Notes under the pieces: model-generated
Database searches by the model: none
What the model was told of the DNA's origin: nothing
The model's input: the letters and a program-made list of their open reading frames with translations, nothing else
Part shown: piece by piece, positions 5,894 to 47,573 of the stretch
Layout: each line of letters starts with the position of its first letter
Numbering within the stretch: position 1 is the stretch's first letter
Source: Alloascoidea hylecoeti
Taxonomy: Eukaryota
Length of the DNA: 64,000 nt
Direction: 5' to 3'
NCBI GenBank assembly: GCA_001600815.1
Contig: BCKZ01000004.1
Coordinates: forward strand, 434,001-498,000
Made by a program: the position numbers and the translations under genes

Positions 5894-6324
5894 CACAGAA
5901 ATATAGAATCCTTTTTCAACGTTTTTCTTTTTGTCTAGAAAACTTTTCTTTTCCAATTCCCTTGAATCTTTTTTGGATTAAATATTTATGATTACGGTAT
6001 ATATTTTTAATATACAATATTTCTAATTTCTGGCTCACAATTATTATATAAAAATATCTATGAAAGCCCTGTGCCTCGCTCAGTGTATACCTCCTTTATA
6101 CACTTTGAGCTGGATACCAACAAGCGCGAAGATACTTCATCTTAAGCATTTGTCAGTAATGGGCCATAATAACAAACATGTTTTTGAGTGCGACTCCATC
6201 GTTCAGTTTCTGGTGGTGGAATTGTAATTATAAAACCTGACATTTTATGTAATTGTAATGTTCATTGTACTGTAACATCTTATCATCTATTTTAGAACTC
6301 ATTCTTTGTATTATACATTATATT

Positions 6325-16707: not shown

Positions 16708-18066
16708 TTAGACAAAATCTTGTAGTCCGAGGGCTCTCGGGATACCCAATTGCAATTCCGAGGAGTCAAACTCTTCAGACGATTCATTTTGGAAATGTGA
16801 TACTAGTTTATTTGCTGTTTCTTTGTCGATATTATGGTTAACCCGCAGATGTCTATATAATCGATCAGTCGCACCTCCTGCCGAATCTAGTTTATCGAGG
16901 ACAAAAGTACAGTCTTCAATTCGGCAATAACATTCTCTCTTTGCCTTATCATAATTGTAAAAAAACCAGCAAGAACTTGATAGTTTAGCGGTGCTCATAG
17001 TAGAGTCCTTAGGCCTTAATGTTGGTATGATTATATTGCCCAATGTATGTTTTTCTGCTGATGTTTCTTCTGACTTGTATTGTTTATTCTTATTCTTCAC
17101 ATTATTAGAAGGGGATGATGACAATAGAAACCGAGTAAGCTCCTTGAACTCTTTAGTATCAGCGAGATTCAGGGAACACTTACATTTAGAAATCATACTC
17201 ATAACAAGTCTATAAATCTTTTGCTGAGGAGTAATAGAAGGTGTCGGTACCTTAACTCTCTTGGAAGAATCAACTATAGTTAGTTGATTTCCAGATCTGA
17301 ATCTAGATACCAATTCACCTGCTACTACTCTGTCGATATCATGTTTAGATTGTAGATGTCTATATAATCGACCAGTTGCACCTCCTGCTGTATCTATTTT
17401 ACTGATTACAGATGTACAGTCTTCAATACGACAATGACATTCTCTCGATTCCTTATCATGGTTGAAAAAAAACCAACAAGAACTTGATAAATGATCGATG
17501 TTCATAGTAGTGTACCTAGGCCTTAGTGTTGGCATGACCGTATTGTCCAATGCACGTTTTTCTCCCGACTTAGTCTTAACTTTATCCAAAGGGGATGACA
17601 ATAGATACCGAATAAGCTCCTTAAACTCTTTAGTAGCAATGAGATTCGAAGAACAGTTACATTTACCAATCATATTCATAACAATTTCATAAATCTTTTG
17701 CTGAGGAGGAATAGATCTAGAAGTTACCTTAGCCCTCTTGAAAGAATCAAAGTCGGTTGATTGAGTTCCAGACGTTGATTCATCTTGAAAATGTGCTACC
17801 AGTTCATCTGCTGCTACTCTGTCGATACTATGTTTAGATCGTAGATGTCTATATAATCGACCAGTTGCACCTCCTGATGTAACTATATTACCGATGACAA
17901 TTGAACAACCTTCAATTCTGCAATGACATTCTCTCTTTTCTTTATCATGATCGAAAAAAAACCAACAAGCACTTGATAGACTAGTGGGGTTCGGAGTAGG
18001 GTCCCTAGGCCTTAGGGTTGGTATGGTTATACCGATCAATGTATGTTTTTCTCCCGAGCTATTCAT
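16708..18066 (-). CDS. Triple BED zinc-finger protein derived from a hAT transposase N-terminus
   Basis: Three internal repeats (spacings 489 and 507 bp), each CWFF..C-x4-C..GGATxRLYRHLxxxH; repeats 1 and 2 are followed by a helical NLxxTKEFKEL segment; no DDE domain. Confidence 0.7.
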   Translation of the reverse strand: MNSSGEKHTLIGITIPTLRPRDPTPNPTSLSSACWFFFDHDKEKRECHCRIEGCSIVIGNIVTSGGATGRLYRHLRSKHSIDRVAADELVAHFQDESTSGTQSTDFDSFKRAKVTSRSIPPQQKIYEIVMNMIGKCNCSSNLIATKEFKELIRYLLSSPLDKVKTKSGEKRALDNTVMPTLRPRYTTMNIDHLSSSCWFFFNHDKESRECHCRIEDCTSVISKIDTAGGATGRLYRHLQSKHDIDRVVAGELVSRFRSGNQLTIVDSSKRVKVPTPSITPQQKIYRLVMSMISKCKCSLNLADTKEFKELTRFLLSSSPSNNVKNKNKQYKSEETSAEKHTLGNIIIPTLRPKDSTMSTAKLSSSCWFFYNYDKAKRECYCRIEDCTFVLDKLDSAGGATDRLYRHLRVNHNIDKETANKLVSHFQNESSEEFDSSELQLGIPRALGLQDFV

Positions 18067-18969: not shown

Positions 18970-20209
18970 TTAAGCAAAATCTTCCAATTGCAAGACAATT
19001 TTTCCATGAGCTCTTCTCGATACTAATCTTTTAAAAGCTCTATTAATATCAGACCATTGGTATTCAGAATCAATAATGATCTTAAGCTTTCCTTCTTCTA
19101 ATAATTTTGCACCAACTTCTAGCCATTTCCCATAAGTAACATTATGAACAATATATCTTATTCCCCAAAAAGGACCAAACCATTGACGCCCAAGCATACT
19201 AAGACTCAATCGTGATGGAACCGCTTCAGGTGAATCTTTACTATCTCCTACTATTGTAACATATGCTGAACCTTTATCACTTAGTTCTAAAATATCATCA
19301 CAAATTTCAAAAAGAGATCTACCACCAACACAATCAAGAATCATATCAAACTTCTTCTTCTCATGTTTAACGTATTCTTTTAATTGATCATTTAAATTGG
19401 TTGTATTAAGACGATAATCAATACATGTATCAGCACCCAAAAATTCACATAATTCTTCTGAATCACTAGAACATGTAACAACAACATTACTAAATCCAAA
19501 TTGTTGTTTAGCTAATTGTATAGCCATTATTCCAACTGAAGTCGCACCACCGACGATTAAAAGACTTGAATATTCTAGACTACCTGTATCGACATATTTC
19601 AAGGATTGGTATGCTGTACCGAATGTCATTGGCCATGCCGCCGCTTGTTCTGGTGTAATTAGCGATGGTACTTTTACTATATATTCAACAGATGGATTCA
19701 CGACAATATTTGTGGATAGTGTACCCTCACCCATCTATTATTTTGTTGATATCGATATTATTAGTAAAAAGAAATGTTGAATATATAATATTTATTATAC
19801 TTACCTTTAAATACATTCCGCAAACCAAATCACCAACTTGCCAAACTTTTTTGAGATTATCACCAACCTCCATTATTTCACCACAATAATCTTTTCCTAT
19901 TCCTTTTGAACCAGGGTATGACCACTGTGAATTTTTCAATTTATAATCCAATGGATTTAATGCTGCATATTTAACACTAATTACAACAGAATCCGGATCA
20001 ACTGGTAATGGAGTTCGACCATATGTAAATTGTAACAGTGAATCAGGACCAGATACTTCATAAGTAATAGCCTTTTTAGGAATGTACTGAATAGGGCGAA
20101 GGGGGCGGGGTACTCGTTGAAGATAGTTTGATGATTCGGCCTCGGTAGATATCACAGGTTGATATGAGCCCAATTGATGTGGACTATTATGCTTAAGAGT
20201 AGTAGTCAT
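18970..20209 (-). CDS. MDR-family quinone-oxidoreductase-like protein (YIM1/AST family), 2 exons
   Basis: Exons 20209-19805 and 19734-18970; 70-bp intron GTAAGT..TACTAAT..TAG joins them in frame (389 aa). Motifs AALNPLDYK, GKDYCG, GGATSVG, DCVGG, RAHGKIV. Confidence 0.88.
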
Positions 20210-28122: not shown

Positions 28123-30315
28123 TTACCAGTAAGAATTTGCATTACCATTTTTTTCGATAAGATCTTTATTAATGCCCCATGGATCAGGCTTTAAAGCTTT
28201 ATTTAATAAATTTATTGGATTTCCAATAAATTCATAGGTATTATTACCTTCATTTTTTTCAATCATTTCCATTTCTAATGAATGCAAATCTAATGCTTCT
28301 TTTGCATCATTATATTCATTCATATAAGCTTTACTTCCACAAGCTCCTTCTAAAGTTAATAAACCATCTGAATCAAATCTTGTATCAGTTGGTGGGAAAT
28401 CTGAACAAATATATCCAGATACCCATAATTTTGTATCTTTATCATAATTATAACCAGCATATGAATCTTTTCTTGTATAACTTATTTCACCATATTTACG
28501 ATCTAAAATTCGTTTATGATTATAAGGAACTTGTGCTTTATAACCTTCAAATAAAGTTCTTCTAATTGGTGAAACATCTTCAAAAAGCATCCAATTCCAA
28601 CTTTTACATACAATAACAGTACTTGAATTTTTTGTATAATTACTATTATCCCATAAATTTTCAGGTGGTTCACTATCATAAAATTCTGTAGATTGGGTTG
28701 AAATATCAATATAAATACCAGTTCTAATATCAATTATTCTTGCATCAATTGTATTAACACGATTACCAAGACCTAAAAACCAAGGAGAAACTTCAAAATA
28801 AAATCTACCATTACCAATTCTTGGATCTTCAACAATTAATGTTTGATTATAATGTTTACCTAACCAAGCCAAATGTTGAACAGGTAAGATTACATCAATA
28901 TCAGTATCATAAGGTAAATTTAAACCATTAAAATGCCAACCAATTAATGAACCAGCCCAAATCCATGTAGCAATATCATGAGCCATACAAAATTCAAACC
29001 AAGCTCTTGATAAACGATTTAAAATATAACCTCTTTCTTTATCAGTAATAGGTTTTTTATAAAAAGGATAAGCAATATGATCAACTAAATGATGAGGATC
29101 ATTATTAACATGAGGATAACTAAACCATTCTTTTTGATTATGCATATTAGGAACAGCATATTTTAACATATCTAACCATTTTTGATCAACTTTATCTAAA
29201 ATTGGTGATGATTTTTCTAATTCTAACATTTGATCAAGTTCTTTTTGTGGATTTAATTCAAATGAAGATAATGGTATATCAATTAGGGATTTTTTTGATA
29301 AATCATGTTTTGATTTTAATGATTCTGGTGTATAATTTGGAAATTTATTTTTATAAGTTGATATTAAATCAACAATTTCATCTTCAATATTAAAAGAAAT
29401 TGGAAATTCACCTGTATTATTTTTTAAAGCTTTTCGAATTTTTGAATATTTTTTTGAATCATTTTGATAATATAATTCATATAAACCTTTTTTACCATAT
29501 CTTTTTTTTTTTGATATTGGAATTTCAAAAAATTTCTCTTCTGTTAAAATTAATAATTTTTGTGGAATTAATCTAACACTATAAAGATTGATTGCACCGC
29601 GTAATGCTTGACGGGATGATTCTTCTCTTTCAGTTGGATTATAAGGACTTAATAATTTACCAATTTCTTCATCAATTGCATAAATATCATTACTTGTATC
29701 ATTTCCTTTTGACGATTGGCCGGGTACATAAACTTCAGTCAAATCCGAAAAATATGGTGAAGAAATAATAGCAAAATTTTTCTTTTTATCTTGATCATTA
29801 ACAATTGTTCTATAAGCATTAAATAGCGCACCAACATCACCTAAATCCATCCAATCATCCCAATGGAAATCAATTGAAAATAAATCATCATCAGTAAAAG
29901 CATTTTCATCAGTCATTTCAGCAGATTTTATAAAGTTTTTTAATGTTGATATTGTAGCACCTAAAGATAATCTTGGATCAAAAGGATCAATTCTTTTATT
30001 TGTAAAAGATTTAGCAAAAGGAGCCAAATAGTCAGTATCTAATATTTTTTCATTTGATAACACAACAAATTTCTGAATATTTTTTTGATTTCTTAAATAG
30101 AACATATAATTTGAACAGGAAGTTGATATTAATGATATCGAAACAAAAGCAAATAAAAATAGAAATAGCAATATGGCCTGGAATTTGAAGTATGGCGATC
30201 TACAAGATTTTCTATATCTATTTTTTAGTTGCAGTTCAGGGTCGATATCCAGATTAGAATACTTTGAGCGAGCAGAACTAAGCAGTCGCCGGACAAGACC
30301 AAAGAAGAGCCGCAT
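28123..30315 (-). CDS. Mnn4-like LicD-family mannosylphosphate transferase/regulator
   Basis: N-terminal TM anchor, FDPRL, FHWDDWMDL, GSLIGWHFNGLNLPYDTDIDV, NTIDARIIDIRTGIYIDI; first ATG at 30315. Confidence 0.88.
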   Translation of the reverse strand: MRLFFGLVRRLLSSARSKYSNLDIDPELQLKNRYRKSCRSPYFKFQAILLFLFLFAFVSISLISTSCSNYMFYLRNQKNIQKFVVLSNEKILDTDYLAPFAKSFTNKRIDPFDPRLSLGATISTLKNFIKSAEMTDENAFTDDDLFSIDFHWDDWMDLGDVGALFNAYRTIVNDQDKKKNFAIISSPYFSDLTEVYVPGQSSKGNDTSNDIYAIDEEIGKLLSPYNPTEREESSRQALRGAINLYSVRLIPQKLLILTEEKFFEIPISKKKRYGKKGLYELYYQNDSKKYSKIRKALKNNTGEFPISFNIEDEIVDLISTYKNKFPNYTPESLKSKHDLSKKSLIDIPLSSFELNPQKELDQMLELEKSSPILDKVDQKWLDMLKYAVPNMHNQKEWFSYPHVNNDPHHLVDHIAYPFYKKPITDKERGYILNRLSRAWFEFCMAHDIATWIWAGSLIGWHFNGLNLPYDTDIDVILPVQHLAWLGKHYNQTLIVEDPRIGNGRFYFEVSPWFLGLGNRVNTIDARIIDIRTGIYIDISTQSTEFYDSEPPENLWDNSNYTKNSSTVIVCKSWNWMLFEDVSPIRRTLFEGYKAQVPYNHKRILDRKYGEISYTRKDSYAGYNYDKDTKLWVSGYICSDFPPTDTRFDSDGLLTLEGACGSKAYMNEYNDAKEALDLHSLEMEMIEKNEGNNTYEFIGNPINLLNKALKPDPWGINKDLIEKNGNANSYW

Positions 30316-30460
30316 TACTGGATACACGGCCGGTGAGCAGAGAAGAGACAGCTGGATTTAAAGGGGGAGCTTCGTAGTTTTATATCTTCAGGGTCCCGTA
30401 AACATTTCGGTTTGGGATTAGGTTCCGCGAGCATGCACACCCTGCGTATCCGTACAGACA

Positions 30461-31282
30461 TCACACGCCTCCATGCATAATCTGCAAATCGGCCTGCCCA
30501 TACAGTTTTCCGACAACAGCACAAACACACGAGCAGCTCGCGCCGAACGGGTCGTCCGGGTCGTCGCCCGCGTCGTCGCCCGCGTCGTCCCCCCGAACCC
30601 GGATGAACTTCTTGGCCAGCTCCCTCAGCACAGAAACGTCGTCTCCGGTAAGGACCTCCGGCGCCCGGAGGAGTAAACTGTGTATCCAGACCGAGAGTGG
30701 CACCGGGAAATCTGTTGGGGCCGTTATGAGTTCGGTGCACTGTCTGATCAGCAGGAACACCGTCTCGTGGCTGATCGAACGCAACAACGCCGGCGTAGGG
30801 ACGTTCGCACTGTCCAGTATCCATTTTTTCATTGCATTTTTTGGCGGAATCCGTTTGACCTCTTTGGCATTCTCTGCTCCTCCCATTTCGCCCCGGAAAA
30901 GATCCATTTTCTGTTGTTTATATAGTTCCAAATACTCGGTTTCCCAGCTTGCTTTTTCTTCACCTTTGGCGTCACTGTTTTGTACCTCCAAGTCTGTCTT
31001 ATGGTATGGTTTCACCGAGTCTTTCTCCAGATGCTGTTCCTCCTCCTCACCTTCCCTCTCAACAAATGCAAATACTCCTCCATTTTCCGCTTCATACCTA
31101 ACCATCCCTAAATATGTTTCGACGTTACTTGGTGGTTCACCACTTTTGATGTATTGTTTAATATTTTTGACATTGGTATTCACTGGAAATGCACTTCTTT
31201 GCCCAAATAATTCGTCTAACGGCCCCTGTGTAAACTGCCTATTCTCATTATCTGTTTTCTGTTTCTTTTTTGGTGGGGCCAT
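30461..31282 (-). CDS. Gemin2/Brr1-like snRNP assembly factor
   Basis: FGQRSAFPV, YLGMVRYEA, WIHSLLLRAPEVLTGDDVSVLRELAKK, VGKLYGQADL. Confidence 0.75.
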   Translation of the reverse strand: MAPPKKKQKTDNENRQFTQGPLDELFGQRSAFPVNTNVKNIKQYIKSGEPPSNVETYLGMVRYEAENGGVFAFVEREGEEEEQHLEKDSVKPYHKTDLEVQNSDAKGEEKASWETEYLELYKQQKMDLFRGEMGGAENAKEVKRIPPKNAMKKWILDSANVPTPALLRSISHETVFLLIRQCTELITAPTDFPVPLSVWIHSLLLRAPEVLTGDDVSVLRELAKKFIRVRGDDAGDDAGDDPDDPFGASCSCVCAVVGKLYGQADLQIMHGGV

Positions 31283-31561: not shown

Positions 31562-31983
31562 TCAATAGTGAGCAAATAAAGGCAAACGTTGAAGTGAACC
31601 TCCCTCCCAATCAATATATTCAATTCCATCTTTCAGACCTTTGTTATAAAAGTTTTCCAGCAGGGTATTGGACAAAACTGGTTTAATTGTGTTATCTATA
31701 GTGCCAATTGTAATATGGACAAAATTCTTTGTTCTTAATTTTTGTGGTTTTATTGATTTTGGATCATTTTTTAATCCAGTTGATGTATAATTATCCACTT
31801 TAACTTGTAAAACCATTAATTTATCATCCCATAATAATCTTGTTGGTGTCACATTTGCTGTTAATCCATCAATAAAATATTCTGATCCAAATTTTGGTTG
31901 AAGAAATCGATTTATATTTATACCATTTAAATGAACTGTTAATTTAAGAATATTCATATATTCATTATAAATTTCTAAACTAT
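31562..31983 (-). CDS. TRL1: TRL1 3' fragment (second half of the cyclic phosphodiesterase domain)
   Basis: LLWDDKLM, VHITIGT (second HxT motif), IKPVLSNTLL; in frame with the 5' part once the 329-bp insert plus TSD is removed. Confidence 0.85.
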
Positions 31984-32307
31984 TGTTGTTATTTCAATTT
32001 TAATTAACTTATTTCATGCTTACATATCCGATATGCAGTGCAGATCAATCATCAAATGATCTACATATGTTTCAGATTTATATTAAACTACATGCCTTGC
32101 ATATTAGATATGCAGGGGTTACGTGGTCATTCATATACTACAGCAAGCCCCTTAATATTATTGCCACCTCCTTATTATTATTTAGCCTATATAGTTACAT
32201 ATATAAGACAGTTAAATCCATTGGATTTAACTCTCTACTTTTTCTTATTCCTATTTAATATACTATTTACTTTATCTTTTTTACTCTATCAGTTTTACCG
32301 ATTAATA
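31984..32307 (+). mobile_element. Solo-LTR-like insertion (324 bp) inside TRL1
   Basis: Starts TGTTG and ends TTAATA; flanked by direct repeat ACTAT (31979-31983, 32308-32312); internal TATATAA at 32200 and pyrimidine-rich 3' end; removal restores the reading frame. Confidence 0.8.
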
Positions 32308-34842
32308 ACTATGACTTGTCTTTTCTGCAATATGTGATAATGTAACATGTTTATCATTTAATATAATTCTATTATTTTTCAATAAATTTTGTAAAAAATT
32401 ATAACCATTCTCATTTGACATAAATAATTGATTTGAAATTTTATCAATTAATAAATTTGCATTTTTAATTTTAATTCCAAAATAAATTGGTTTCTTAAAA
32501 TCTTTAAAATCATTTGTTTTTGGTATTTTATTTTTATCATATACATCAGTTTTCATATTTTTAAATTTTTTAAATTTTGGTTTGTAATTTAATGATAATT
32601 TAAATGAATTTTCAATTTTTGATGAATTATTTAATTGTTCTGTTGTAACTAATTCTGAATAATTTTCATTTATAATTTTTAAAATATATTTTAAATTTTT
32701 TAATGATATCAAATCTTTTCCTTCATTATAATTATTAATATTATAATTATTATTGTTATTATTATTATTATTATTATTATTAATATTATTATTTGAAATT
32801 GACCCTTTAAAATCTTCATGAGTTGTAGCTTTTGATAAATCAATAATTAAATCAAAATTACTATCTGGTGATTGATTAACATCAACAGGTTGATATCTTT
32901 TAATAAATCCATTCATAATTTTTTCAACATTATTCCAATTCTCACTTCTTGCATCAATTGTTTGATGATTATCACCTCTTTTAAAAACTCTATCTTGAGT
33001 TAAATTCCATAAATCATTTGATATTCTTTTTGAACCAATAAAATCAAGTGCAATGAATTTATAATGATAATCTTTTAATGATTTTTTAATTTGATTATTA
33101 TTATAAAAATCATTGAAAATTTGTTCTCTTTCACAATACATATGATTATTTTTATCAATTATAACTGCTGGTGTATTCTTATCTAAAATTAATTTAATTG
33201 CATCTTTAACTAATCCTAATGACCCTTTTTTACCACCACCTCTTATATTATCACTTTGAACATGTCCCCATGTTGGAAATAATGTTCTTAATGATTGAGA
33301 AATTGTTGTTTTACCACAACCAATTGTTGCAATTGATACAAATACATATTTTGTTTTTTTTTCAATTCCATTTTTATTAACATTTTCATTAACATTATTT
33401 GATCCATTTTGAATTTTTAATTGTGAAAATAATTTGTTTGTTTGTGAATCTGATTCATTTATTACTTCAGTTTCTTCTTCATTAGCTAATTCAATACCAG
33501 TTTTACCAACATGATTTAAAAATCGGTTTCTTAATTCAATTATTGCATGACCTTCCTTATATCTTGTCGTTAACTCCTTATCTTTTGATAAAATTGGACC
33601 AACAAATTCTAAATATTGACTTGTTATAACTTTTTGTTTTCTAATAGTTAATGGTTTACCAGATATTAAACTTTTTGTTAATTCTCTCCATTGTCTATAC
33701 ATTAAATATGGTTCTTCAAATTTATATTTAAAAAACCAATCATTTAAATGATTATCATTTTCACCTTCTAAATGTTTTGCTTTACATCTTATAACAAAAC
33801 CTTCAATATCTTCACCATTCCAACTACCAGTTTCTGAACATTTTTCTAAAAAAAATTTTAATTCTTCAATATTTTCTTTAACAAGGAATTTTGTTTCTTT
33901 CATACCGAAAATTTTAGCAAATTCAGATACTTGATCACATGGATAAGTTTTAAAAATTGGAATATTTAAATTTAATCCATGTAAATATAAACCTGCTTTA
34001 TCACCAGTATATTCTAAAACATGTTCTTCAAATTCATCATCACATAATTCAGCAACTGCAGTGACATTCATTTTATATAAAGTTTTTGCCAATTGATTCA
34101 TTGAAATTCCTTTCTTATTTAAACATTTTTCAATTGATTTTAAACCAACAAATGAATGATTTTTCCAATTTGCATCAGTATCTTGTCTTGGACCAGTTGA
34201 TCTTTTACTACATACATTAATTGTACCATCTTTAAAACCTGAAATAAATATAATACATCCATTTTCTTTTTGTGATATAAAATATGGACCTTTTGTATTA
34301 TTATTTATCCAACTCCATGATGTTGTTTTAACTTCATCAATATTGAAAAACTTTTCATAACCACGAGTAATTATTTTTTCTTCATTTCCATTTTCAATAT
34401 CTTCATATGTAAATAATCCACGAGCATTTGATGGTAATTTAATTGATCCATAATCCCATTCATTAAATTTCCAACCTTTTATTTTTTTATCTGAATTCCA
34501 AACTGGGAAAGTTGAAAGTTTAACTTTTCCTTTACGTGATGATTTTTCTTTTGATTCATTTAATTGTTCTATTAATTCAGATGTTGAAATCCCCCATTCT
34601 GGTGGTGATAATATTGGGAATGGTAAATCAATTGATTCGTTAGACATTAAATTTAAAGGAGATGATTTAGAAATAGAATAAAAAGATTGAAACTGATGAT
34701 GTTGTTGAAGAATGAAAACTGGGGCACGTGAAGAAATTTTAACAGAGTAATTGAAAAAGCGCAAATATGAGAAAGTTGGGAGATATTTATATCCTATCAA
34801 TTTTTGTTTAAAACAATGGAAAAAGATACCTGAATTTATCAT
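32302..34842 (-). CDS. TRL1: tRNA ligase Trl1, 5' part (ligase, kinase, first half of CPD), truncated by the insertion
   Basis: KFNEWDY, ARGLF, KENGC (adenylated Lys), EGFVIRC, FFKYKFEEPYLMYRQWRE, IATIGCGKTT, RGDNHQ, HVT; the stop codon comes from the insert. Confidence 0.95.
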   Translation of the reverse strand: MINSGIFFHCFKQKLIGYKYLPTFSYLRFFNYSVKISSRAPVFILQQHHQFQSFYSISKSSPLNLMSNESIDLPFPILSPPEWGISTSELIEQLNESKEKSSRKGKVKLSTFPVWNSDKKIKGWKFNEWDYGSIKLPSNARGLFTYEDIENGNEEKIITRGYEKFFNIDEVKTTSWSWINNNTKGPYFISQKENGCIIFISGFKDGTINVCSKRSTGPRQDTDANWKNHSFVGLKSIEKCLNKKGISMNQLAKTLYKMNVTAVAELCDDEFEEHVLEYTGDKAGLYLHGLNLNIPIFKTYPCDQVSEFAKIFGMKETKFLVKENIEELKFFLEKCSETGSWNGEDIEGFVIRCKAKHLEGENDNHLNDWFFKYKFEEPYLMYRQWRELTKSLISGKPLTIRKQKVITSQYLEFVGPILSKDKELTTRYKEGHAIIELRNRFLNHVGKTGIELANEEETEVINESDSQTNKLFSQLKIQNGSNNVNENVNKNGIEKKTKYVFVSIATIGCGKTTISQSLRTLFPTWGHVQSDNIRGGGKKGSLGLVKDAIKLILDKNTPAVIIDKNNHMYCEREQIFNDFYNNNQIKKSLKDYHYKFIALDFIGSKRISNDLWNLTQDRVFKRGDNHQTIDARSENWNNVEKIMNGFIKRYQPVDVNQSPDSNFDLIIDLSKATTHEDFKGSISNNNINNNNNNNNNNNNYNINNYNEGKDLISLKNLKYILKIINENYSELVTTEQLNNSSKIENSFKLSLNYKPKFKKFKNMKTDVYDKNKIPKTNDFKDFKKPIYFGIKIKNANLLIDKISNQLFMSNENGYNFLQNLLKNNRIILNDKHVTLSHIAEKTSHSY

Positions 34843-37968: not shown

Positions 37969-39130
37969 ATGGGAGATCCGACTGACAAAAAGGATGAGGA
38001 CCTGGCTCCGTCGCTGTTGTCTCATCTGAATTCCATCCGGGGCATAATATCCGGTTCTTCCTCCGCTCCTTCGTCTGGAGATCCGGCGGGGACTGGGCAA
38101 ACTTCTTCCCTGGATTTTATAAAACAGATGGCTGCAGACACACCTGATGCTGAAATTGATCAAGTATGTCCATTGTCTTGAATATTCCGGAAATATCGAC
38201 TAACCTTTTCGATAGTCTTCCATAATATCAAATAACCGTAAAAATTTACGTCTAAATTCTTCAAATTCATCCTCAACTTCTCAAATTAGAGATTCAAAAG
38301 CAAAGGATTTACAGTTCGTTTCTTCTTTGGGTGAATCTTTGCTCATCGAATGTAGAAAATTACAACATGCTTTACAAGAAAAAGAGAATATTTTAAATAA
38401 AATAGTATCTGAAAAGAATCTAATTGAAGATGATAATAGAGCTTTAAAAGGGAAAGTTACTGAATTAACTGAGGCTGAAGGTAGGTACTTTTATCTTTAT
38501 TTTTTTTATTTATTTATCCATTCAAAACTAATATGTATGTATTTGATTTATAGAAAAAGTAAAAGATTATACCTGGGATCTAGAAATGAAACTTCAATCA
38601 TTAAATTTAGAAAAATCAACTTTAGAATCTGAATTAGATAAATCAAAATTAAATTTATCAAAATTAAATAATTTAAAATCTGAAGATTTGATAATTATTG
38701 AATCATTAAAATTAAAAGAATCTGAATATTTAAAAAAAATTGATTTTTTAAAAACTAAAGAAATTGAAAATGAATCAAATAATCAAATAATCGATGAATT
38801 ATCTGAAACAAATGAATTATTAACAAAAAATTTAGAAGATTTAAAATTTAAAATGGAACATGATAATAAAAATCAAACAAATAATTTAAAAACTTCAAAT
38901 ATACCAAATTTAAAACATAATTATGATTCTGATATTGATATTGATGAATCTTTTAATACTCCAAGGTCTTCTCCTCCAATTTCTCCTGTAAAAGAAACTC
39001 CTTCAACAAATACAATTTTGGAAACTGAAACTACAAAAGCTGCATTATCAAGAGCTCAACGTACAATTCAAAAATTAAGAAATGAATTAATTAAATCAAA
39101 ACAATCTTTTCAACAACAACAACAACATAC

Positions 39131-39184
<54 letters not shown>

Positions 39185-42100
39185 CAGCAATAATCTTAAA
39201 GATAAAAAATCATCTAATTTACATGGTCCAACTTCAAGATTATATATTTATGATAGTTCTTCAGTTACTGATTCAAATGAAGAATGGGAAAATATTGATG
39301 ATGATAATATTCAATCACCTCCATCATTTAATAGATCATCAACATCAGATTCAATTAATAGTAACAACTCAAATTATAAAAATCGTTCAACAAGTGATGC
39401 ATTTTTATCTGCTCAAGAATCAATGTCTGATTTTGGTACATCTCATTCAATAACTACTGATGATGATGCTTATTTAACTGCAAGAGATGATGATGATGAT
39501 GAAACTGGTGAAGAAACTGATGGTCCATTTTTAAATCGTAATAGATTATCAAAAAGATCTTCCTCTACTTCTTCATCATCTTCTGAATTTATTTCAGATG
39601 ATAGTTCAGATGATGGTTCTTTAATTATAAGTAGACAAAAATTAAATCGTGCGACAAAAATTCCTCTTACTTTTTATCAAAGAAATAATAATAATAATAA
39701 TAATGTTAGATCAAATCCTTTACTTTCAACACCAATTAATAAACATACAACATCAATAAATGATAATACAATAATTCATTCAAGTCCTGAAACAACACCA
39801 CAAAATTTATTTAAAGAATTAAATTTCAATTCTTCTTCAACTTCAAATAATAATTCAATTTTAGAAAATGATTCAAGTTCTCATGATTTAATAACACAAT
39901 CTGATTTTGATAATTATGCTCATGAGAATAATTTAATTGCTTTAAGTATATCAGATTATAATAAATTAACTGAAACAACAAGCGAAAATTTAATAAATGA
40001 TAATGAATTAAATGAAGAAGAATTAATTAAATATGGAGAAAAATTAGGATTAATTACAATTACAAAATTAAAATATGATGAATTAATTAATAAAAATATT
40101 CATTTAGAAGATAATGTCGAAAATCCAAATTTAGAAACTATTATTTTAAATGTTAAAAAAGCTGGATATGAACCAATTCCAATTGATGATTATAAAGATC
40201 TGGTTAATAAAGCTGATAAACCAGATTCCAATCATATCATTGAAAAAGCCGCTGCTATTGGATTAACAACATTAAGTGTTAAAGAATTGGCTGATTTGAA
40301 ATCAAAAGCAGAAACACCTGATGCTGAACATGTCACTAATAAAGCTAAAGATTTAGGATTGGTTACTGTTCCAGAAGTTGATTATGAAAATTTGATTCAT
40401 CCAAGTAAAGAAACCATTGTAACAAAGGCCAAAGAAGCTGGTTATGAATCAGTTCCNATTGNTGAATATAAAGACCTTGTTGGAAAAGCAACCAAACCAG
40501 ATGTTGAACATATCACTAATAAAGCTAAAGATTTAGGATTGGTTACCGTTCCAGAAACTGATTATGAAAAATTAGTTCATCCAAGCACTGATTCCATTGT
40601 TTTCAAAGCAAAAGAAGCTGGATATGAACCAATTCTAATTGATGATTATAAAGATCTTGTCAATAAAGCAGATAAACCAGATTCTAATCATATCATTGAA
40701 AAAGCCGCTGCTATTGGATTAACAGCACTAAGTGTTAAAGAATTAGCCGATTTGAAATCAAAAGCAGAAACACCAGATGCTGAACATGTTACTAATAAGG
40801 CCAAAGATTTAGGATTGGTTACTGTTCCAGAAACTGATTATAAGACATTGATTAATCCAACTGTTGATACCATTGTAACAAAGGCCAAAGAAGCTGGATA
40901 TGAATCAGTTCCGATTGGTGAATATAAAGACCTTGTTGGAAAAGCAACCAAACCAGATGTTGAACATATCACTAATAAAGCCAAAGATTTGGGATTGGTC
41001 ACTGTTCCAGAAACTGATTATGAAAAATTAGTTCATCCAAGCACTGATACTATTGTTTTCAAGGCCAAGGAAGCTGGTTATGAATCTGTTCCAATCGAAA
41101 AATACAATGATCTTGTTGAAAAAGCAACCAAACCAGATGCATCTTATATTTCTGAAAAGGCAGCTGCCATTGGATTAACAACATTAAGTGTTAAAGAATT
41201 GGCTGATTTGAAATCAAAAGCTGAAACTCCAAATGCTGATCATGTCACTTCTAAAGCTAAAGATTTAGGATTGATAACTGTTTCACAAACTGATTATGAA
41301 ACGTTGGTTCACCCAAGTACAGAGATTGTTATATCAAAAGCTAAGGAAGCAGGATATGAATCTGTTCCAATTGAAAAATACAATGATCTTGTTGAAAAGG
41401 CAACTAAACCAGATTCTAATCATATCATTGAAAAAGCAGCCGCTATTGGATTAACAGCACTAAGCATTAAAGAATTAACCGATTTGAAATCAAAGGCAGA
41501 AACACCTGATGTTGAACATGTCACTAATAAAGCTAAAGATTTAGGATTGGTTACTGTTCCAGAAACTGATTATAAGACATTGATTAATCCAACTATTGAT
41601 ACCATTGTTTTCAAGGCTAAAGCAGCTGGTTATGAATCAGTTCCAATTGATGAATATAAAGACCTTGTTGGAAAAGCGAATAAACCAGATATTGAACATA
41701 TTACTACTAAAGCTAAAGATTTAGGATTGGTTACTGTTCCAGAAGTTGATTATGAAAATTTGATTCATCCAAGTAAAGAGATCGTTATATCAAAGGCCAA
41801 AGAGGCTGGATATGAATCAGTTCCAATTGATGAATATAAAGACCTTGTTGGAAAAGCTACCACACCAAATGTTGAACATATCACTACTAAAGCCAAAGAT
41901 TTAGGATTGGTTACTGTCTTAAAAATTGATTATGAAAAATTAGTTCATCCAAGCACTGATACTATTGTTTTCAAGGCCAAGGAAGCTGGTTATGAAGCTG
42001 TACCAGTTGAAAAATACAATGACCTTGTTAATAAAGCAGATAAACCAGATTCTAATCATATCATTGAAAAGGCAGCCGCTATTGGATTTACAGCATTAAG

Positions 42101-45100
42101 CATTAAAGAATTAACCGATTTGAAATCAAAAGCAGAAACACCAGATGCTGAACATGTCACTAATAAAGCTAAAGATTTAGGATTGGTTACTGTTCCAGAA
42201 GTTGATTATGAAAATTTGATTCATCCAAGTAAAGAAACCATTGTAACAAAGGCCAAAGAAGCTGGTTATGAATCAGTTCCNATTGNTGAATATAAAGACC
42301 TTGTTGGAAAAGCAACCAAACCAGATGTTGAACATATCACTAATAAAGCTAAAGATTTAGGATTGGTTACCGTTCCAGAAACTGATTATGAAAAATTAGT
42401 TCATCCAAGCACTGATTCCATTGTTTTCAAAGCAAAAGAAGCTGGATATGAACCAATTCCAATTGATGATTATAAAGATCTTGTCAATAAAGCAGATAAA
42501 CCAGATTCTAATCATATCATTGAAAAAGCCGCTGCTATTGGATTAACAGCACTAAGTGTTAAAGAATTAGCCGATTTGAAATCAAAAGCAGAAACACCAG
42601 ATGCTGAACATGTTACTAATAAGGCCAAAGATTTAGGATTGGTTACTGTTCCAGAAACTGATTATAAGACATTGATTAATCCAACTGTTGATACCATTGT
42701 TTTCAAGGCTAAAGAAGCTGGTTATAAAGTTGTTCCATCAACCGAGTTTGAGACCTTGGTTGAAGCAGCTGTTCATCCTTCCTATGATGTTATTTTCAAA
42801 CAAGCATCATCTACTGGTCTTACAGTCATACCAAATGAAGAATTCAAATCCTTGCAAACTAAAGTTAATGATGCAATGAATCCAACAGAGGATCATATAA
42901 AATCTATCGGTGCTGGATTGGGTCTTTCAGTAATTTCCAAATCAGCTTATGATGAACTTACCAAGAAAGCAGAAACTCCATTGACTAAAGAAAATTTAAT
43001 TTCTAAAGCTGAAGATTTGGGATTGATTACAATTACACAAGAAGAATTTGATGAATTAAATTCAAATAAATCGAGATCAATAGCTCCAGTACCAATTCCT
43101 GTACCAGTTCCAATTTCAACTTCGAAAAATATTTCAAAAACAGATGGGTTTATTACTATTACTGAAACAGAGTATGATGATTTGAAAAAATCTGTCACTA
43201 CACCAAAAGTTATTAGTGATAGTGAATTTGTTAGTGAAGTTAAGAAACGAAATTTAACTGCTATTTCACCAGATGAATATAATTCATTATTGACAGTTTC
43301 TAAAGCACCAAAGACTTTTGATGATGATGAATTTAATTCAGAGATTAAGAAACGTAACTTAGTTGCAATTCCACCTGTTGAATTAAAGAAAATACAAGAA
43401 CCTGATGTTAATTCTGTCAAAGAAAAAGCATCACAATTTGGGTTTGAAATGGTACCAAAGGGAGAGATTAAACTTTTACGTGATCCAACACTACCTTTTA
43501 TAACTGAAAAGGCTAGTATTCTTGGATATGAAACCTTACCAAAGGCTAAATTAAATGAATTGACAGAAGAAGTTGAATTTTTAAGAAATCCAAAGATTGA
43601 TTATATTAAAGGAAAAGCAGCTGGACTTGGATATAACACTATTCCAAAAGATGTATATTCAGAACTTGTTGATAATGTTGCTGAATTAGAAATTTTGAGA
43701 GATCCTAAATTAGAATATATTTCTGAAAGAGCATCTGGACTTGGTTATAAGACCATTCCTAATGATGAATATTCAGAATTGATTGATAATGTTGTTGAGC
43801 TACAGATACTACGTAATCCAAATATTGATTATATTAAGACAAAAGCAGATAATCTTGGATATGAAACTATTCCAAAGGATGAACATCAAGAATTAATAAA
43901 TACTATTAAATCTCCAAATAAAGAATTTATTATTGCTGGTGCTTTAGCTGCTGGAATGATTGCTCTAGGTAAGGGGGATTATGATCGATTAATTAAAACA
44001 GAACAGGAACCAAGCAAAGAATTTATCAAGTCCAAGGCAGAAGCAAATGGTCTTGTAGTTATACCTAAAGAAGAACACGAAAGATTTGTTAATTTAGAAT
44101 CTGCTCCAAGCAAAGAGTTTATTGTTTCTAAGGCAGAAGAATCTGGATTTGCTGTTGTACCCAATGCCGAACTTGAAAGATTGTTTAATATTGAGACATC
44201 ACCAAGCAAGGAATTCATTGAGTCCAAGGCAGAAGCAATCGGTCTTGTAACTGTTCCCAAAGACGAGCACAAGAGATTGGTTGAATTAGAAAATGCCCCA
44301 AGCAAAGAATTCATCGAATCTAAGGCGCATGCATCTGGTTTTGCCGTTGTACCTGCTGTAGAACTTGAAAGATTGATCNGCGTTGAAAAATCACCAAGTA
44401 AAGAGTTTATTGTATCTAAGGCAGTGGAAACTGGTCTTGTTGCGGTACCTAAAGAAGATCATGAAAGATTGGCCAATTTAGAGAGCACACCAAGCAGAGA
44501 GTTTATTGAGTCAAAGGCACAAGAATCTGGATTTGCTGTTATTCCCCAAACAGAACTTGAAAGATTAGTCAATGTTGATAAATCACCAAGCAAAGAATTC
44601 ATTGAGTCCAAGGCAGAAGCAGTCGGTCTTGTAACTGTTCCTAAAGAAGAGCACAAGAGATTGGTTGAATTAGAAAATGCTCCAAGCAAAGAATTCATCG
44701 AATCTAAGGCAGAAGAATCTGGGTTTGCAGTTGTTCCCACAGCTGAGCTTGAAAGATTAGTCAATGTTGAGAAATCACCAAGCAACGCGTTTATTGTTTC
44801 TAAGGCAGAAGAATCTGGATTTGCTGTTGTACCCGATGCCGAACTTGAAAGATTGTTTAATATTGAGACATCACCAAGCAAGGAATTCATTGAGTCCAAG
44901 GCAGAAGCAATCGGTCTTGTAACTGTTCCCAAAGACGAGCACAAGAGATTGGTTGAATTAGAAAATGCCCCAAGCAAAGAATTCATCGAATCTAAGGCGC
45001 ATGCATCTGGTTTTGCCGTTGTACCTGCTGTAGAACTTGAAAGATTGATCNGCGTTGAAAAATCACCAAGTAAAGAGTTTATTGTATCTAAGGCAGTGGA

Positions 45101-47573
45101 AACTGGTCTTGTTGCGGTACCTAAAGAAGATCATGAAAGATTGGCCAATTTAGAGAGCACACCAAGCAGAGAGTTTATTGAGTCAAAGGCACAAGAATCT
45201 GGATTTGCTGTTATTCCCCAAACAGAACTTGAAAGATTAGTCAATGTTGATAAATCACCAAGCAAAGAATTCATTGAGTCCAAGGCAGAAGCAGTCGGTC
45301 TTGTAACTGTTCCTAAAGAAGAGCACAAGAGATTGGTTGAATTAGAAAATGCTCCAAGCAAAGAATTCATCGAATCTAAAGCGCAAGCATCTGGATTAGC
45401 TGTCGTGACCGAAGCCGAACTTGAAAGGTTGATCGGTATTGAGAAATCACCAAGTGAAGATTTCATAACTCGCCATGCTGAAAATATCGGCCTTATTGCT
45501 GTGCCCAAAGAACAACACCGGGAATTGACTGATACCTTAGCGACTCCAAGTACAGATTTCATTAAATCAAAAGCACAGGATGCCGGTCTAATCGTCATTT
45601 CAAAGGAAGATCATGACATCCTACTCCATAATATTGAAGAACCTCCAGTCGATTACTTGACTAAGAAGGCAAACGAAGTCGGGTATGCTGTTGTACCAGT
45701 GACTGAATGGGACAAGCTTAATCAACCCACTGAAGAATATCTAAAGACAGCTGGAAGTGGTCTTGGCTTAATGGTCATCGGTCAATCAGTTTATGATGAA
45801 CTCACGAAAAGGTTAGAATCAACTCAAAGAGATTTAGAGGAATCTAGGAAACCTTTAACTAAAAAAGAATTGGCTGATAATGCTGACTTTTTTGGTTTAG
45901 CACTTATTCCTGAACATGAACTTGAATTTTTTAGATCGCAGCATTTAACACCCGACAAAGAAATTATTGTGGAAAATGCAAAGAAATTGGGCTTAGTCGT
46001 CATTCCAGGTACACAATATGATCAATTACAAGCAGAGGCAAATCGAGAAATTTCCGAACGGGATATTTTCAACGCAGCTGAACATTTCGGTCTTGTAGTT
46101 TTACCATATGATGGTATCACTGAAAAAGAGGTCAATGAGTGGGCAGAAAAGAATAATTATATTGTTGCTCCTGAACAAGAATATGATAATGCTATTAAAA
46201 CTGCTCCTGTACCCTTTGAAAGATTATCCAAGAGAGCAACTGAACTAGGTTTACTTATGGTATCAAAAGATGAATATCAAAAGAATTTGACAACATTTCA
46301 AAATGCAAGTAAGAAAGATGTTATTCAAAGATCTACGGCACTTGGACTTGTTACAATCACACAAGAAGAATATAATTCACTTGTTCGTAGTTCCAAGAGC
46401 AAAAGTACACCAATTCCCCTGGTTGTTCCTACGAATTCAAGTTCTGATAATATTTCAAGAGATGTTATTTCTCAACGTGCTTCTTCATTGGGTCTTGTAA
46501 CCATTCCAAAATCTGAGTATGATGCTCTTACGCGTGCCTCTAAGGCATATAGTGTGCAATCGCCAACTTTAGCCCAATCAAATATACAATCAACAAGCCT
46601 TGTTTTGAACTCCGATTTGAGTAAGCCTAGTGAATTGAATTCTCCAGTTGGTAGTAATAGCCCTGCTGGTCCAACAATTAAAGAAGTGAAAGGTACGCCA
46701 AGAATGTCCGATTCAATTGTTGTTCCACCAAAATTACATAGAGAATTATCTGGAATCGTTGTGGAGGAAGAACAGGAGGGTGTAGACCCTGTTTCAGTTA
46801 GTCGTACTATGGATACACCTAAATCGAAGGTTAGTCGCAAGAAACCATCCACCTATTCTTCGAGATCAGAACAAACCAAAGGATTAGCTGCAGCATATAA
46901 TGAAGACGATGAAGGAGATAATATTATTCTTCCATCCAATATCACTATTGCTACCAATCCATCATTAAATGAACAAAGTATGATACCTGCGGTTACACAA
47001 ACAGTTATTGGTGAATTTTTGTATAAATATTACAGACGCATTGGAGGAGTTAGTGGGATTTCTGAAAATAGGCATAAACGTTATTTCTGGATACACCCAT
47101 ATACGATGACATTATATTGGTCAGAGACAAATCCAGCTGTTGGTAATCCTTCGAATGAGAAGACCAGAGCTGCAGCAATTTTAGGAGTTAGAAGTGTCGA
47201 GGATTCCAACCCATTACCCCCAGGTTTATGGCATAAAAGTATTATTGTTAAAACTCAAGGACGAGATGTTAAAATTACTTGTTCAACAAGACAAAGACAC
47301 AATATCTGGTATAACACTTTACGGTATCTATTAGAGCGCGCTGATGGTATTTTCCATTATGATCCTGAGATGAGTCAAGATAATATTTCTACAATCGATG
47401 AACGATATGGGCAAACGAACGAAATGTTACCTCCAGTCATTCATCCTCGTGCGTCGATGAGTTCTAAGAGAAGTGGTAGTCTTAGACCCCAACATTCAGT
47501 CCCTGAACTGCCAAAAAAGGCCAGCCGAGCTTCAGTAAGGCGCATTTCATCAGTCTTAAAAGGTGAGAGATAA
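37969..47573 (+). CDS. NUM1: Num1/ApsA cortical dynein and mitochondria anchor, 3 exons
   Basis: Exons 37969-38163, 38216-38480, 38554-47573 (introns GTATGT..ACTAAC..TAG and GTAGGT..ACTAAT..TAG), about 3159 aa; N-terminal coiled coil (SLGESLLIECRKLQ), central repeats, C-terminal PH domain (TQTVIGEFLYKY..RHKRYFWIHPYT..RHNIWYN). Confidence 0.93.
40130..42730 (+). repeat. NUM1 coding repeat array A (28/32-aa units, 152-aa higher-order unit)
   Basis: Recurring KAKDLGLVTVP / KAKEAGYE / EKAAAIGLT units; near-identical blocks 1824 bp (4 x 456) apart. Confidence 0.9.
44005..45465 (+). repeat. NUM1 coding repeat array B (32-aa, 96-bp units)
   Basis: PSKEFIESKA units; near-identical blocks 672 bp (7 x 96) apart. 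Confidence 0.9.

What the first reader, a model, noticed from the sequence alone, without database searches (positions are those of the whole stretch)
31562..34842. Essential tRNA ligase TRL1 is split by a solo-LTR-like insert between the two catalytic HxT motifs
Seen: a 324-bp element (31984-32307, TGTTG...TTAATA) flanked by ACTAT duplicates interrupts TRL1. Removing 329 bp restores one 983-aa frame reading HVTLSHIAEKTSHS-LEIYNEY...VHITIGT, and both halves remain open. Known: Trl1 is essential for tRNA splicing and HAC1 ligation in S. cerevisiae, and the 2H phosphodiesterase needs both HxT motifs. Inference: this is a heterozygous null allele, or the CPD activity is supplied elsewhere, or the insert is bypassed by splicing or by split expression (an ATG at 31957 opens a 131-aa C-terminal half).
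Basis: partly seen in the sequence, partly recalled or inferred. Interest (0 to 1): 0.82.

Follow-up and report, generated by a model that had tools for sequence, protein, structure and literature searches.

The report
Insert splits yeast tRNA ligase gene
A 324-base insert that looks like the footprint of a mobile element cuts a budding yeast's tRNA ligase gene inside its last catalytic domain; it is most likely a broken copy carried beside an intact one, but that could not be checked here.

Summary
TRL1 lies on the minus strand (34647..31562). It is interrupted at 31984-32307 by 324 bp flanked by a direct repeat, ACTAT (AACTAT if one more base is counted). Removing 329 bp gives one open frame, colinear with 14 homologues, with both HxT motifs in place. 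As the DNA stands, the protein stops two codons into the insert. It keeps the ligase and kinase domains and the first HxT, and loses the second.

The insert is a transposition footprint. Its size, the 5-bp duplication and the TGTTG tip fit a yeast solo LTR. The other tip is TTAATA rather than CA, the terminal inverted repeat is weak, and no second copy could be found, so I call it LTR-like only.

It is not a normal intron. It has no GTAWGT and no branch point, whereas a likely intron in the same window has both.

Whether an intact allele or paralogue exists is the decisive question, and I could not answer it.

Best reading, at 0.5: a recent recessive null allele masked by an intact copy. A fixed, tolerated split remains possible at about 0.12.

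The parts
32302..34842 (-). TRL1 5' part. The open frame is 846 aa, and the probable real start is M66 at 34647 (781 aa). It holds the ligase (adenylyltransferase) domain, the kinase domain with the GCGKTT P-loop, and the first half of the CPD domain. It ends ...TSHS-Y-stop, with the last two codons read from the insert.
32341..32349 (-). Proximal HxT motif (CAT GTT ACA = HVT) of the 2H phosphoesterase (CPD) domain.
   Evidence: coordinates worked out
32308..32312 (.). Right copy of the duplicated target site ACTAT (AACTAT if 32307 is counted).
31984..32307 (+). The 324-bp insert, TGTTG...TTAATA, 28% GC. It has 17, 15 and 10 stops in the three TRL1-sense frames. On the + strand it carries a TATATAAG at 32200-32207 followed by a 15-nt-arm palindrome at 32206-32236. 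It is LTR-like, and its + orientation is antisense to TRL1.
32302..32304 (-). Premature TAA stop of the upstream TRL1 frame, inside the insert.
31979..31983 (.). Left copy of the duplicated target site ACTAT (AACTAT from 31978).
31562..31978 (-). TRL1 3' part: 138 codons plus stop, in frame with the 5' part once 329 bp are removed. It is the second half of the CPD domain. A 131-aa ORF opens at the ATG 31957-31955.
31709..31717 (-). Distal HxT motif (CAT ATT ACA = HIT). Changing the equivalent histidine to alanine is lethal in the C. albicans and S. cerevisiae enzymes and in the plant enzyme AtRNL.
   Evidence: PMC7145591 passages

Best explanation
A mobile element, most likely a Ty-like LTR retrotransposon later reduced to a single LTR, integrated into the coding sequence of TRL1. 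It duplicated 5 bp of target (ACTAT). The insertion lies between strands beta2 and beta5 of the cyclic phosphodiesterase (CPD) domain. The allele encodes a Trl1 that stops two codons into the insert. Ligase and kinase are intact, and the CPD lacks its distal HxT motif, so on its own it should not heal the 2',3'-cyclic phosphate ends of tRNA exons. Both halves are otherwise undamaged and the duplication is perfect, so the insertion is recent. The organism most likely lives on an intact copy that this assembly does not show, either a second allele in a diploid or heterozygous strain or a paralogue. That would make this a recessive loss-of-function allele. Shown: the insertion, the duplication, the truncation and the absence of intron signals. 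Inferred: the LTR identity, loss of function, and the existence of an intact copy.
For: Removing 329 bp restores one frame. That frame is colinear with 14 homologues, and H-x-T is present at both motifs in 15 of 15 rows. The Pfam CPD profile is split 2-134 and 163-235 between the two ORFs. The 6-bp repeat and the TGTTG tip at the boundary are each rare: 36 of 63590 positions, and 0.002 per position. Yeast LTRs run 127-780 bp, mostly with 5-bp duplications and TGTTG/CAACA tips (PMC4139406 passages; bioRxiv 10.1101/2025.04.25.647736 passage). The insert has 10-17 stops in each TRL1-sense frame. The HxT motifs sit in beta2 and beta5 of a single eight-stranded sheet (PMC7145591 section 12), and alanine at the distal histidine is lethal in three tested orthologues (same paper, passages). 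The 918 codons carry no other stop or frameshift, which fits a recent event.
Against: No intact allele or paralogue was seen. No genome is held, no reads were laid, and tblastn finds no second TRL1-like stretch in the 64-kb window. The ploidy of the organism is unknown. The 3' tip of the insert is TTAATA rather than CA, and the terminal inverted repeat matches at only 9 of 20 positions. No second copy of the insert was found in the window, in metagenome contigs or in viral contigs. An intact open frame on both sides fits equally well a gene that still works as two pieces.
Confidence: 0.5

Rival explanations
1. The insertion is fixed and this is the only TRL1, and the yeast tolerates it. Either the truncated Trl1 and a separately made C-terminal fragment reassemble into a working CPD domain, or another enzyme opens the 2',3'-cyclic phosphate.
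For: Both halves are fully open and keep their conserved motifs. A 131-aa ORF with its own ATG starts 27 nt past the insert. Trl1 modules work when encoded separately: SceLIG plus SceKIN-CPD are viable, Mucorales have a stand-alone ligase with no recognisable KIN-CPD homologue, and Branchiostoma encodes healing and sealing enzymes separately (PMC10946426 passages). The active site has pseudo-two-fold symmetry, with one HxT on each side (PMC7145591 passage).
Against: The cut runs through one beta sheet, not between domains. Known natural and engineered splits fall between domains. The ATG at 31957 has T at -3 and is preceded by ATGs at 32066, 32052, 32025, 32017 and 31965 that open very short frames (frames read). 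Reinitiation after a 781-codon ORF is inefficient in eukaryotes (general knowledge). No promoter evidence exists. A recent insertion explains the intact frames equally well.
Confidence: 0.12
2. The insert is removed from the TRL1 transcript, either as a newly gained spliceosomal intron or by unconventional splicing, so a full-length protein is still made.
For: Seven GT...AG pairs around the insert would restore the frame, for example GTTATT...TTTAG of 335 nt.
Against: None of the 7 has a GTA 5' site. Upstream of the stop there is no GTATGT or GTAAGT. Nowhere in 31900-32400 on the TRL1 strand is there a TACTAAC, ACTAAC, CTAAC or TACTAAT-type branch point. A likely intron in the same window (19804..19735, ADH-like gene) reads GTAAGT...TACTAAT...TAG, and 3 further stretches fit GTAHGT...WACTAAC...YAG. 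Folding the insert with its flanks gives z = -2.0 and does not bring the two junctions together. By eye, no Ire1-type loop motif lies at either junction; that motif is recalled, not taken from a call.
Confidence: 0.04
3. The insert is an assembly artefact and is not present in the organism's TRL1.
For: The assembly has ambiguous bases in collapsed repeats elsewhere (6 single Ns). I have no independent read-level confirmation.
Against: A misjoin would not create a 6-bp duplication of the target whose removal restores a 918-codon frame exactly.
Confidence: 0.04
4. The insert came by transposition or DNA capture but is not an LTR. It could be a non-autonomous DNA element, a fragment of another element, or captured organellar DNA.
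For: The 3' tip is not CA, the terminal inverted repeat is weak at 9 of 20, no other copy was found, and neither gag-pol nor any transposase lies nearby.
Against: A 5-bp duplication with a TGTTG tip is the yeast LTR signature. A TATA-like box followed by a palindrome lies two-thirds along the + strand, where an LTR promoter would sit. Captured DNA does not duplicate the target (general knowledge).
Confidence: 0.25

Closest known systems
Solo LTRs of Ty/Tca-type retrotransposons in budding yeasts
   Same: The length of 324 bp falls within 127-780 bp. It has a 5-bp target duplication, a TGTTG 5' tip and a TATA-like box inside (PMC4139406 passages).
   Different: The 3' tip is TTAATA rather than CAACA, the terminal inverted repeat is weak, and no sister copies or parent element were seen. 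It sits inside an essential coding sequence. By recall, S. cerevisiae Ty elements mostly land near tRNA genes; this window has 0 tRNA genes.
Recessive deleterious or lethal alleles carried heterozygously in diploid yeasts (Candida albicans; PMC5061868, search listing and start of abstract only)
   Same: A disabling lesion in one copy of a gene, tolerated because the other copy is intact, and visible when an assembly reports one haplotype.
   Different: Heterozygosity is only inferred here. Neither the ploidy nor the second allele was observed.
Naturally separate tRNA-ligase modules (Mucorales stand-alone RNL; Branchiostoma RNL plus PNK/CPDase; engineered SceLIG plus SceKIN-CPD)
   Same: The heal-and-seal activities need not be on one polypeptide (PMC10946426 passages).
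   Different: Those splits fall between whole domains. This one cuts the CPD domain itself between its two catalytic motifs, and it was made by an insertion, not by gene architecture.
Spliceosomal introns of this genome
   Same: A stop-filled segment inside a coding frame whose removal restores the frame.
   Different: It has none of the 5' splice site or branch-point signals seen in the in-window intron, and it has a target duplication.

Membership tests
Fungal trifunctional tRNA ligase Trl1 | N-terminal RNA ligase (adenylyltransferase) domain with the KxNG lysine motif | tested here: met
   PF09511, 5.9e-86. 'KENGCIIFISG' aligns to solved tRNA ligase chain 9r3w_A.
Fungal trifunctional tRNA ligase Trl1 | Central polynucleotide kinase domain with a GCGKTT P-loop | tested here: met
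   PF08303, 1.3e-55. 'IGCGKTT' is aligned.
Fungal trifunctional tRNA ligase Trl1 | C-terminal 2H phosphoesterase (CPD) domain with both HxT motifs on the same polypeptide | tested here: not met
   As the DNA stands, HVT (32349-32341) and HIT (31717-31709) lie in different ORFs separated by 324 stop-filled bases. The feature is met only after removing 329 bp. The locus is a disrupted TRL1 allele, not an intact member.
Solo LTR of a yeast LTR retrotransposon | Length in the range of yeast LTRs | tested here: met
   324 bp, against 127-780 bp in C. albicans families.
Solo LTR of a yeast LTR retrotransposon | Short (mostly 5-bp) target-site duplication | tested here: met
   ACTAT on both sides. 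A 5-bp match at this spacing occurs at 134 of 63590 positions.
Solo LTR of a yeast LTR retrotransposon | Terminal 5'-TG...CA-3' (TGTTG...CAACA) within terminal inverted repeats | tested here: not met
   The 5' tip TGTTG is present. The 3' tip is TTAATA, and the ends match at 9 of 20 positions as an inverted repeat. A single C-to-T change would give ...AACA; that is an inference only.
Solo LTR of a yeast LTR retrotransposon | Other copies in the genome, or a parent element with gag-pol | not testable with these tools
   No genome is held. There are 0 further copies in the window, 0 in metagenome contigs and 0 in viral contigs. No transposon domains appear in 18 of the 22 ORFs of 150 aa or more that were scanned.
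Spliceosomal intron | A 5' splice site GTAWGT, a branch point (T/A)ACTAA(C/T), and a 3' YAG in frame-restoring positions | tested here: not met
   No such 5' site lies upstream of the stop, and no branch point lies in 31900-32400 on the TRL1 strand. All 7 frame-restoring GT..AG pairs start GTTATT, GTTATA, GTCATA or GTCAAA.

The most novel reading that the evidence does not exclude
The insertion is the only state of the only TRL1 in this yeast. The organism splices its tRNAs with a tRNA ligase whose 2H phosphodiesterase domain is physically cut between its two catalytic HxT motifs. Either the two fragments reassemble in trans, or an unrelated enzyme heals the cyclic phosphate end. The second route would parallel Mucorales, where no Trl1-type CPD homologue was recovered.
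Probability: 0.12. Interest if true: 0.85.

Novelty: new member of a known kind. Interest (0 to 1): 0.4.

Why it matters
If this is a masked null allele, it is an ordinary example of a transposon-made recessive lethal in a yeast. Its uses are as a marker of ploidy or heterozygosity and of a recently active element in a poorly known lineage. If it proved to be the only TRL1 copy, it would show one of two things: that the CPD step of fungal tRNA splicing can be supplied in another way in a budding yeast, or that a 2H domain can work as two chains. Either would bear on Trl1 as an antifungal target and on how 2H enzymes evolved.

Tried and rejected
1. Whole genome: none is held. I therefore could not search for LTR copies, a second TRL1 or a stand-alone 2H enzyme beyond the window.

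2. Reads. The look-up of sequencing runs listed 10 runs. X1 and X2 (one sample, possibly the source) hold 0.97 of 471 sampled words. X3 (another sample of the same organism, another study) and X4 (a wood decay metagenome, a third study) each hold 0.93.

I tried to read the insert's presence from the shares. About 37 of the 471 words should touch the insert. The 0.93 shares fit an empty site, a filled site with a few substitutions, and an empty site with copies elsewhere, so they decide nothing.

4. Same-species proteins. The best hit to residues 400-846 is 37% identical (Pachysolen tannophilus), out of 131 hits. Exact look-up found 0 of 4 window proteins. No intact allele could be found that way.

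5. Metagenome contigs. The C-terminal fragment produced 184 pattern matches, of which 0 were confirmed. A 24-nt piece of the insert gave 0 matches, and 0 in viral contigs.

6. The intron reading was rejected.

7. Unconventional splicing found no support. The Ire1 motif was checked by eye only, and the motif itself is recalled.

8. Solved structures by sequence. The CPD halves are too divergent: the C-terminal half found nothing better than E = 0.94. I located the cut from the paper's description instead.

9. The single Ns as a sign of heterozygosity: rejected. They sit at identical positions of repeat copies 1824 and 672 bp apart, which points to collapsed repeats.

10. I did not run complex prediction on the two CPD halves. 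By the tool's own text, halves of one domain tend to pass through likeness to solved structures, and a pass would say nothing about expression.

11. In print: a search for TRL1, tRNA ligase, retrotransposon and insertion together found 2 reviews and no report of a transposon-split TRL1 (listing only).
Full report
**What is there**

The minus strand of 31562-34842 encodes a fungal tRNA ligase. The upstream open frame (32302-34842, 846 aa) matches three Pfam families: RNA_lig_T4_1 (5.9e-86), tRNA_lig_kinase (1.3e-55) and tRNA_lig_CPD, positions 2-134 of the 250-position profile. The downstream 131-aa ORF (31562-31957) matches tRNA_lig_CPD at positions 163-235.

Similarity to solved tRNA ligase chains begins at residue 69 of the long ORF (9r3w_A, 1.1e-142). 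The real start is therefore probably M66 at 34647, and the 65 residues before it are probably read from the leader.

Between the two ORFs lie 324 bp (31984-32307, 28% GC) that begin TGTTG and end TTAATA. They are flanked by ACTAT on both sides. The repeat is actually 6 bp, AACTAT.

A script that removed 329 bp obtained a single frame of 983 codons, or 918 from M66, with no other stop or shift.

I aligned that product with 14 of the 120 listed homologues: P0001-P0010, P0012, P0013, P0016 and P0018. I left out P0011, P0014, P0015 and P0017 among the top 18, and I did not use the rest. The product is colinear across the junction. H-x-T is present at both catalytic motifs in 15 of 15 rows. The junction falls 13 residues after the first HxT histidine, in a stretch where the homologues differ in length. 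The two histidines are 101 residues apart.

**Is it more than chance?**

A 5-bp match at this spacing occurs at 134 of 63590 window positions, a 6-bp match at 36 of 63590, and TGTTG at 0.002 per position.

One result weakens the naive argument. A loose scan for TGTTG with any 5-bp repeat 150-700 bp further on gives 335 hits in the window. The repeat is convincing only because it sits exactly where its removal restores the frame and the homology.

**What the insert is**

A target duplication marks integration by a transposase or integrase. Passages of a review of Candida albicans elements give LTR lengths of 127-780 bp, mostly 5-bp duplications, and TG...CA ends. They give TGTTG...CAACA as the conserved tips of Ty1-like elements (PMC4139406). 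A preprint passage calls TGTTG and CAACA the characteristic yeast LTR tips (10.1101/2025.04.25.647736).

The insert meets the criteria of size, duplication and 5' tip. On the + strand it also has TATATAAG at 32200-32207 followed by a palindrome with 15-nt arms. That layout would suit an LTR promoter pointing antisense to TRL1.

It fails on the 3' tip, which is TTAATA. It also fails on the terminal inverted repeat, which matches at 9 of 20 positions.

I found no sister copy: none in the window, none in metagenome contigs and none in viral contigs. The window holds no tRNA gene. No transposon protein appears among the 18 of 22 ORFs of 150 aa or more that I scanned.

I therefore call it LTR-like and do not file it as an LTR.

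**What it does to the gene**

In the TRL1 sense the insert has 17, 15 and 10 stops in the three frames. The upstream frame ends ...TSHS-Y-stop.

The Candida albicans CPD structure paper places the two HxT motifs in strands beta2 and beta5 of one eight-stranded antiparallel sheet (PMC7145591, section 12). It reports that alanine at the distal histidine is lethal in the Candida and Saccharomyces enzymes and in the plant enzyme (passages).

The cut therefore goes through the core of a single domain, and the truncated product lacks a residue that is essential wherever it was tested. That this allele alone cannot heal tRNA exon ends is an inference from those orthologues.

**Could the cell bypass it?**

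*Splicing.* Upstream of the stop there is no GTATGT or GTAAGT. Nowhere in 31900-32400 on the TRL1 strand is there a TACTAAC, ACTAAC, CTAAC or TACTAAT-type branch point. The 7 GT...AG pairs that would restore the frame begin GTTATT, GTTATA, GTCATA or GTCAAA.

The same window gives a comparison. An alcohol-dehydrogenase-like gene is read as two ORFs, ADH_N and ADH_zinc_N. They are joined by a 70-nt segment, 19804..19735, reading GTAAGT...TACTAAT...TAG. Three further stretches fit the canonical pattern but are not verified as introns. This yeast appears to use ordinary signals, and the insert has none.

Folding the insert with its flanks gives z = -2.0 and does not pair the two junctions.

*Split expression.* The ATG at 31957 has T at -3. 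It is preceded by ATGs at 32066, 32052, 32025, 32017 and 31965, and the sequence printed shows these open frames of a few codons only. A TATAAA lies about 125 nt upstream, but in DNA this AT-rich that means little.

Natural and engineered splits of Trl1 are known, but they fall between domains (PMC10946426 passages).

**What could not be settled**

The decisive question is whether an intact TRL1 exists in the same cells. No whole genome is held.

Near-identical DNA of this locus is held by another sample of the same organism and by a wood decay metagenome, which makes 2 studies besides the possible source. Whether those carry the insert cannot be read from the word shares.

The species is absent from the protein collection. 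The best hit is 37% identical, and exact look-up found 0 of 4 window proteins. tblastn finds no second TRL1-like stretch in the 64 kb.

**Verdict**

- The most likely account (0.5) is a recent insertion of a mobile element that made a recessive null allele of TRL1, masked by an intact copy not shown in this assembly.
- A fixed, tolerated split is the interesting alternative (about 0.12). In S. cerevisiae the essential role of TRL1 is tRNA splicing, since intronless tRNAs bypass its deletion (PMC5824351 abstract). A fixed split would therefore require another way to heal the cyclic phosphate, or a CPD that works as two chains.
- Splicing of the insert (0.04) and assembly error (0.04) are unlikely.
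- Separately from these, the insert may be a non-LTR element (0.25). That concerns its identity, not the state of the gene.

All translations used the standard code. A reassigned CUG codon would change some residues, but no stop.

Noticed in passing
window 18970-20209 (-): An ADH-like gene appears as two overlapping ORFs, ADH_N at 19727-20209 and ADH_zinc_N at 18970-19734. A 70-nt segment at 19804..19735 reading GTAAGT...TACTAAT...TAG joins them in frame. This is most likely a normal intron and not a frameshift.
   Followed up: partly
window 30300-30900: GC rises to 60-63% in a window that otherwise averages about 30%. The rise sits right next to TRL1 (24% GC) and covers the 3' part of a SIP1/Gemin2-like gene (30461-31282, -). 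Long ORFs are open on both strands there. The cause is unexplained.
   Followed up: no
window 38586-47573 (+): A 2995-aa ORF has a C-terminal Mcp5/Num1-type PH domain. It contains long internal repeats, and single Ns sit at identical positions of the repeat copies: 40457/40462 against 42281/42286, 1824 bp apart, and 44379 against 45051, 672 bp apart. This suggests that repeat copies were collapsed or polished together in the assembly.
   Followed up: partly
window 6064-6245 (+): The H/ACA snoRNA snR36 is matched full length (79.4 bits, gathering score 43). It was the only Rfam match in the window.
   Followed up: no
window 32720-32795 (-): An asparagine-rich run ([22 protein letters not shown]), encoded by AAT repeats, lies in Trl1 just before the start of the CPD profile match. 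The aligned solved chain has no match in this stretch.
   Followed up: no
window 16708-18066 (-): A 452-aa ORF has a weak BED zinc-finger match (E = 0.0008, below the Pfam cut-off). It could be a transposase-derived gene.
   Followed up: no
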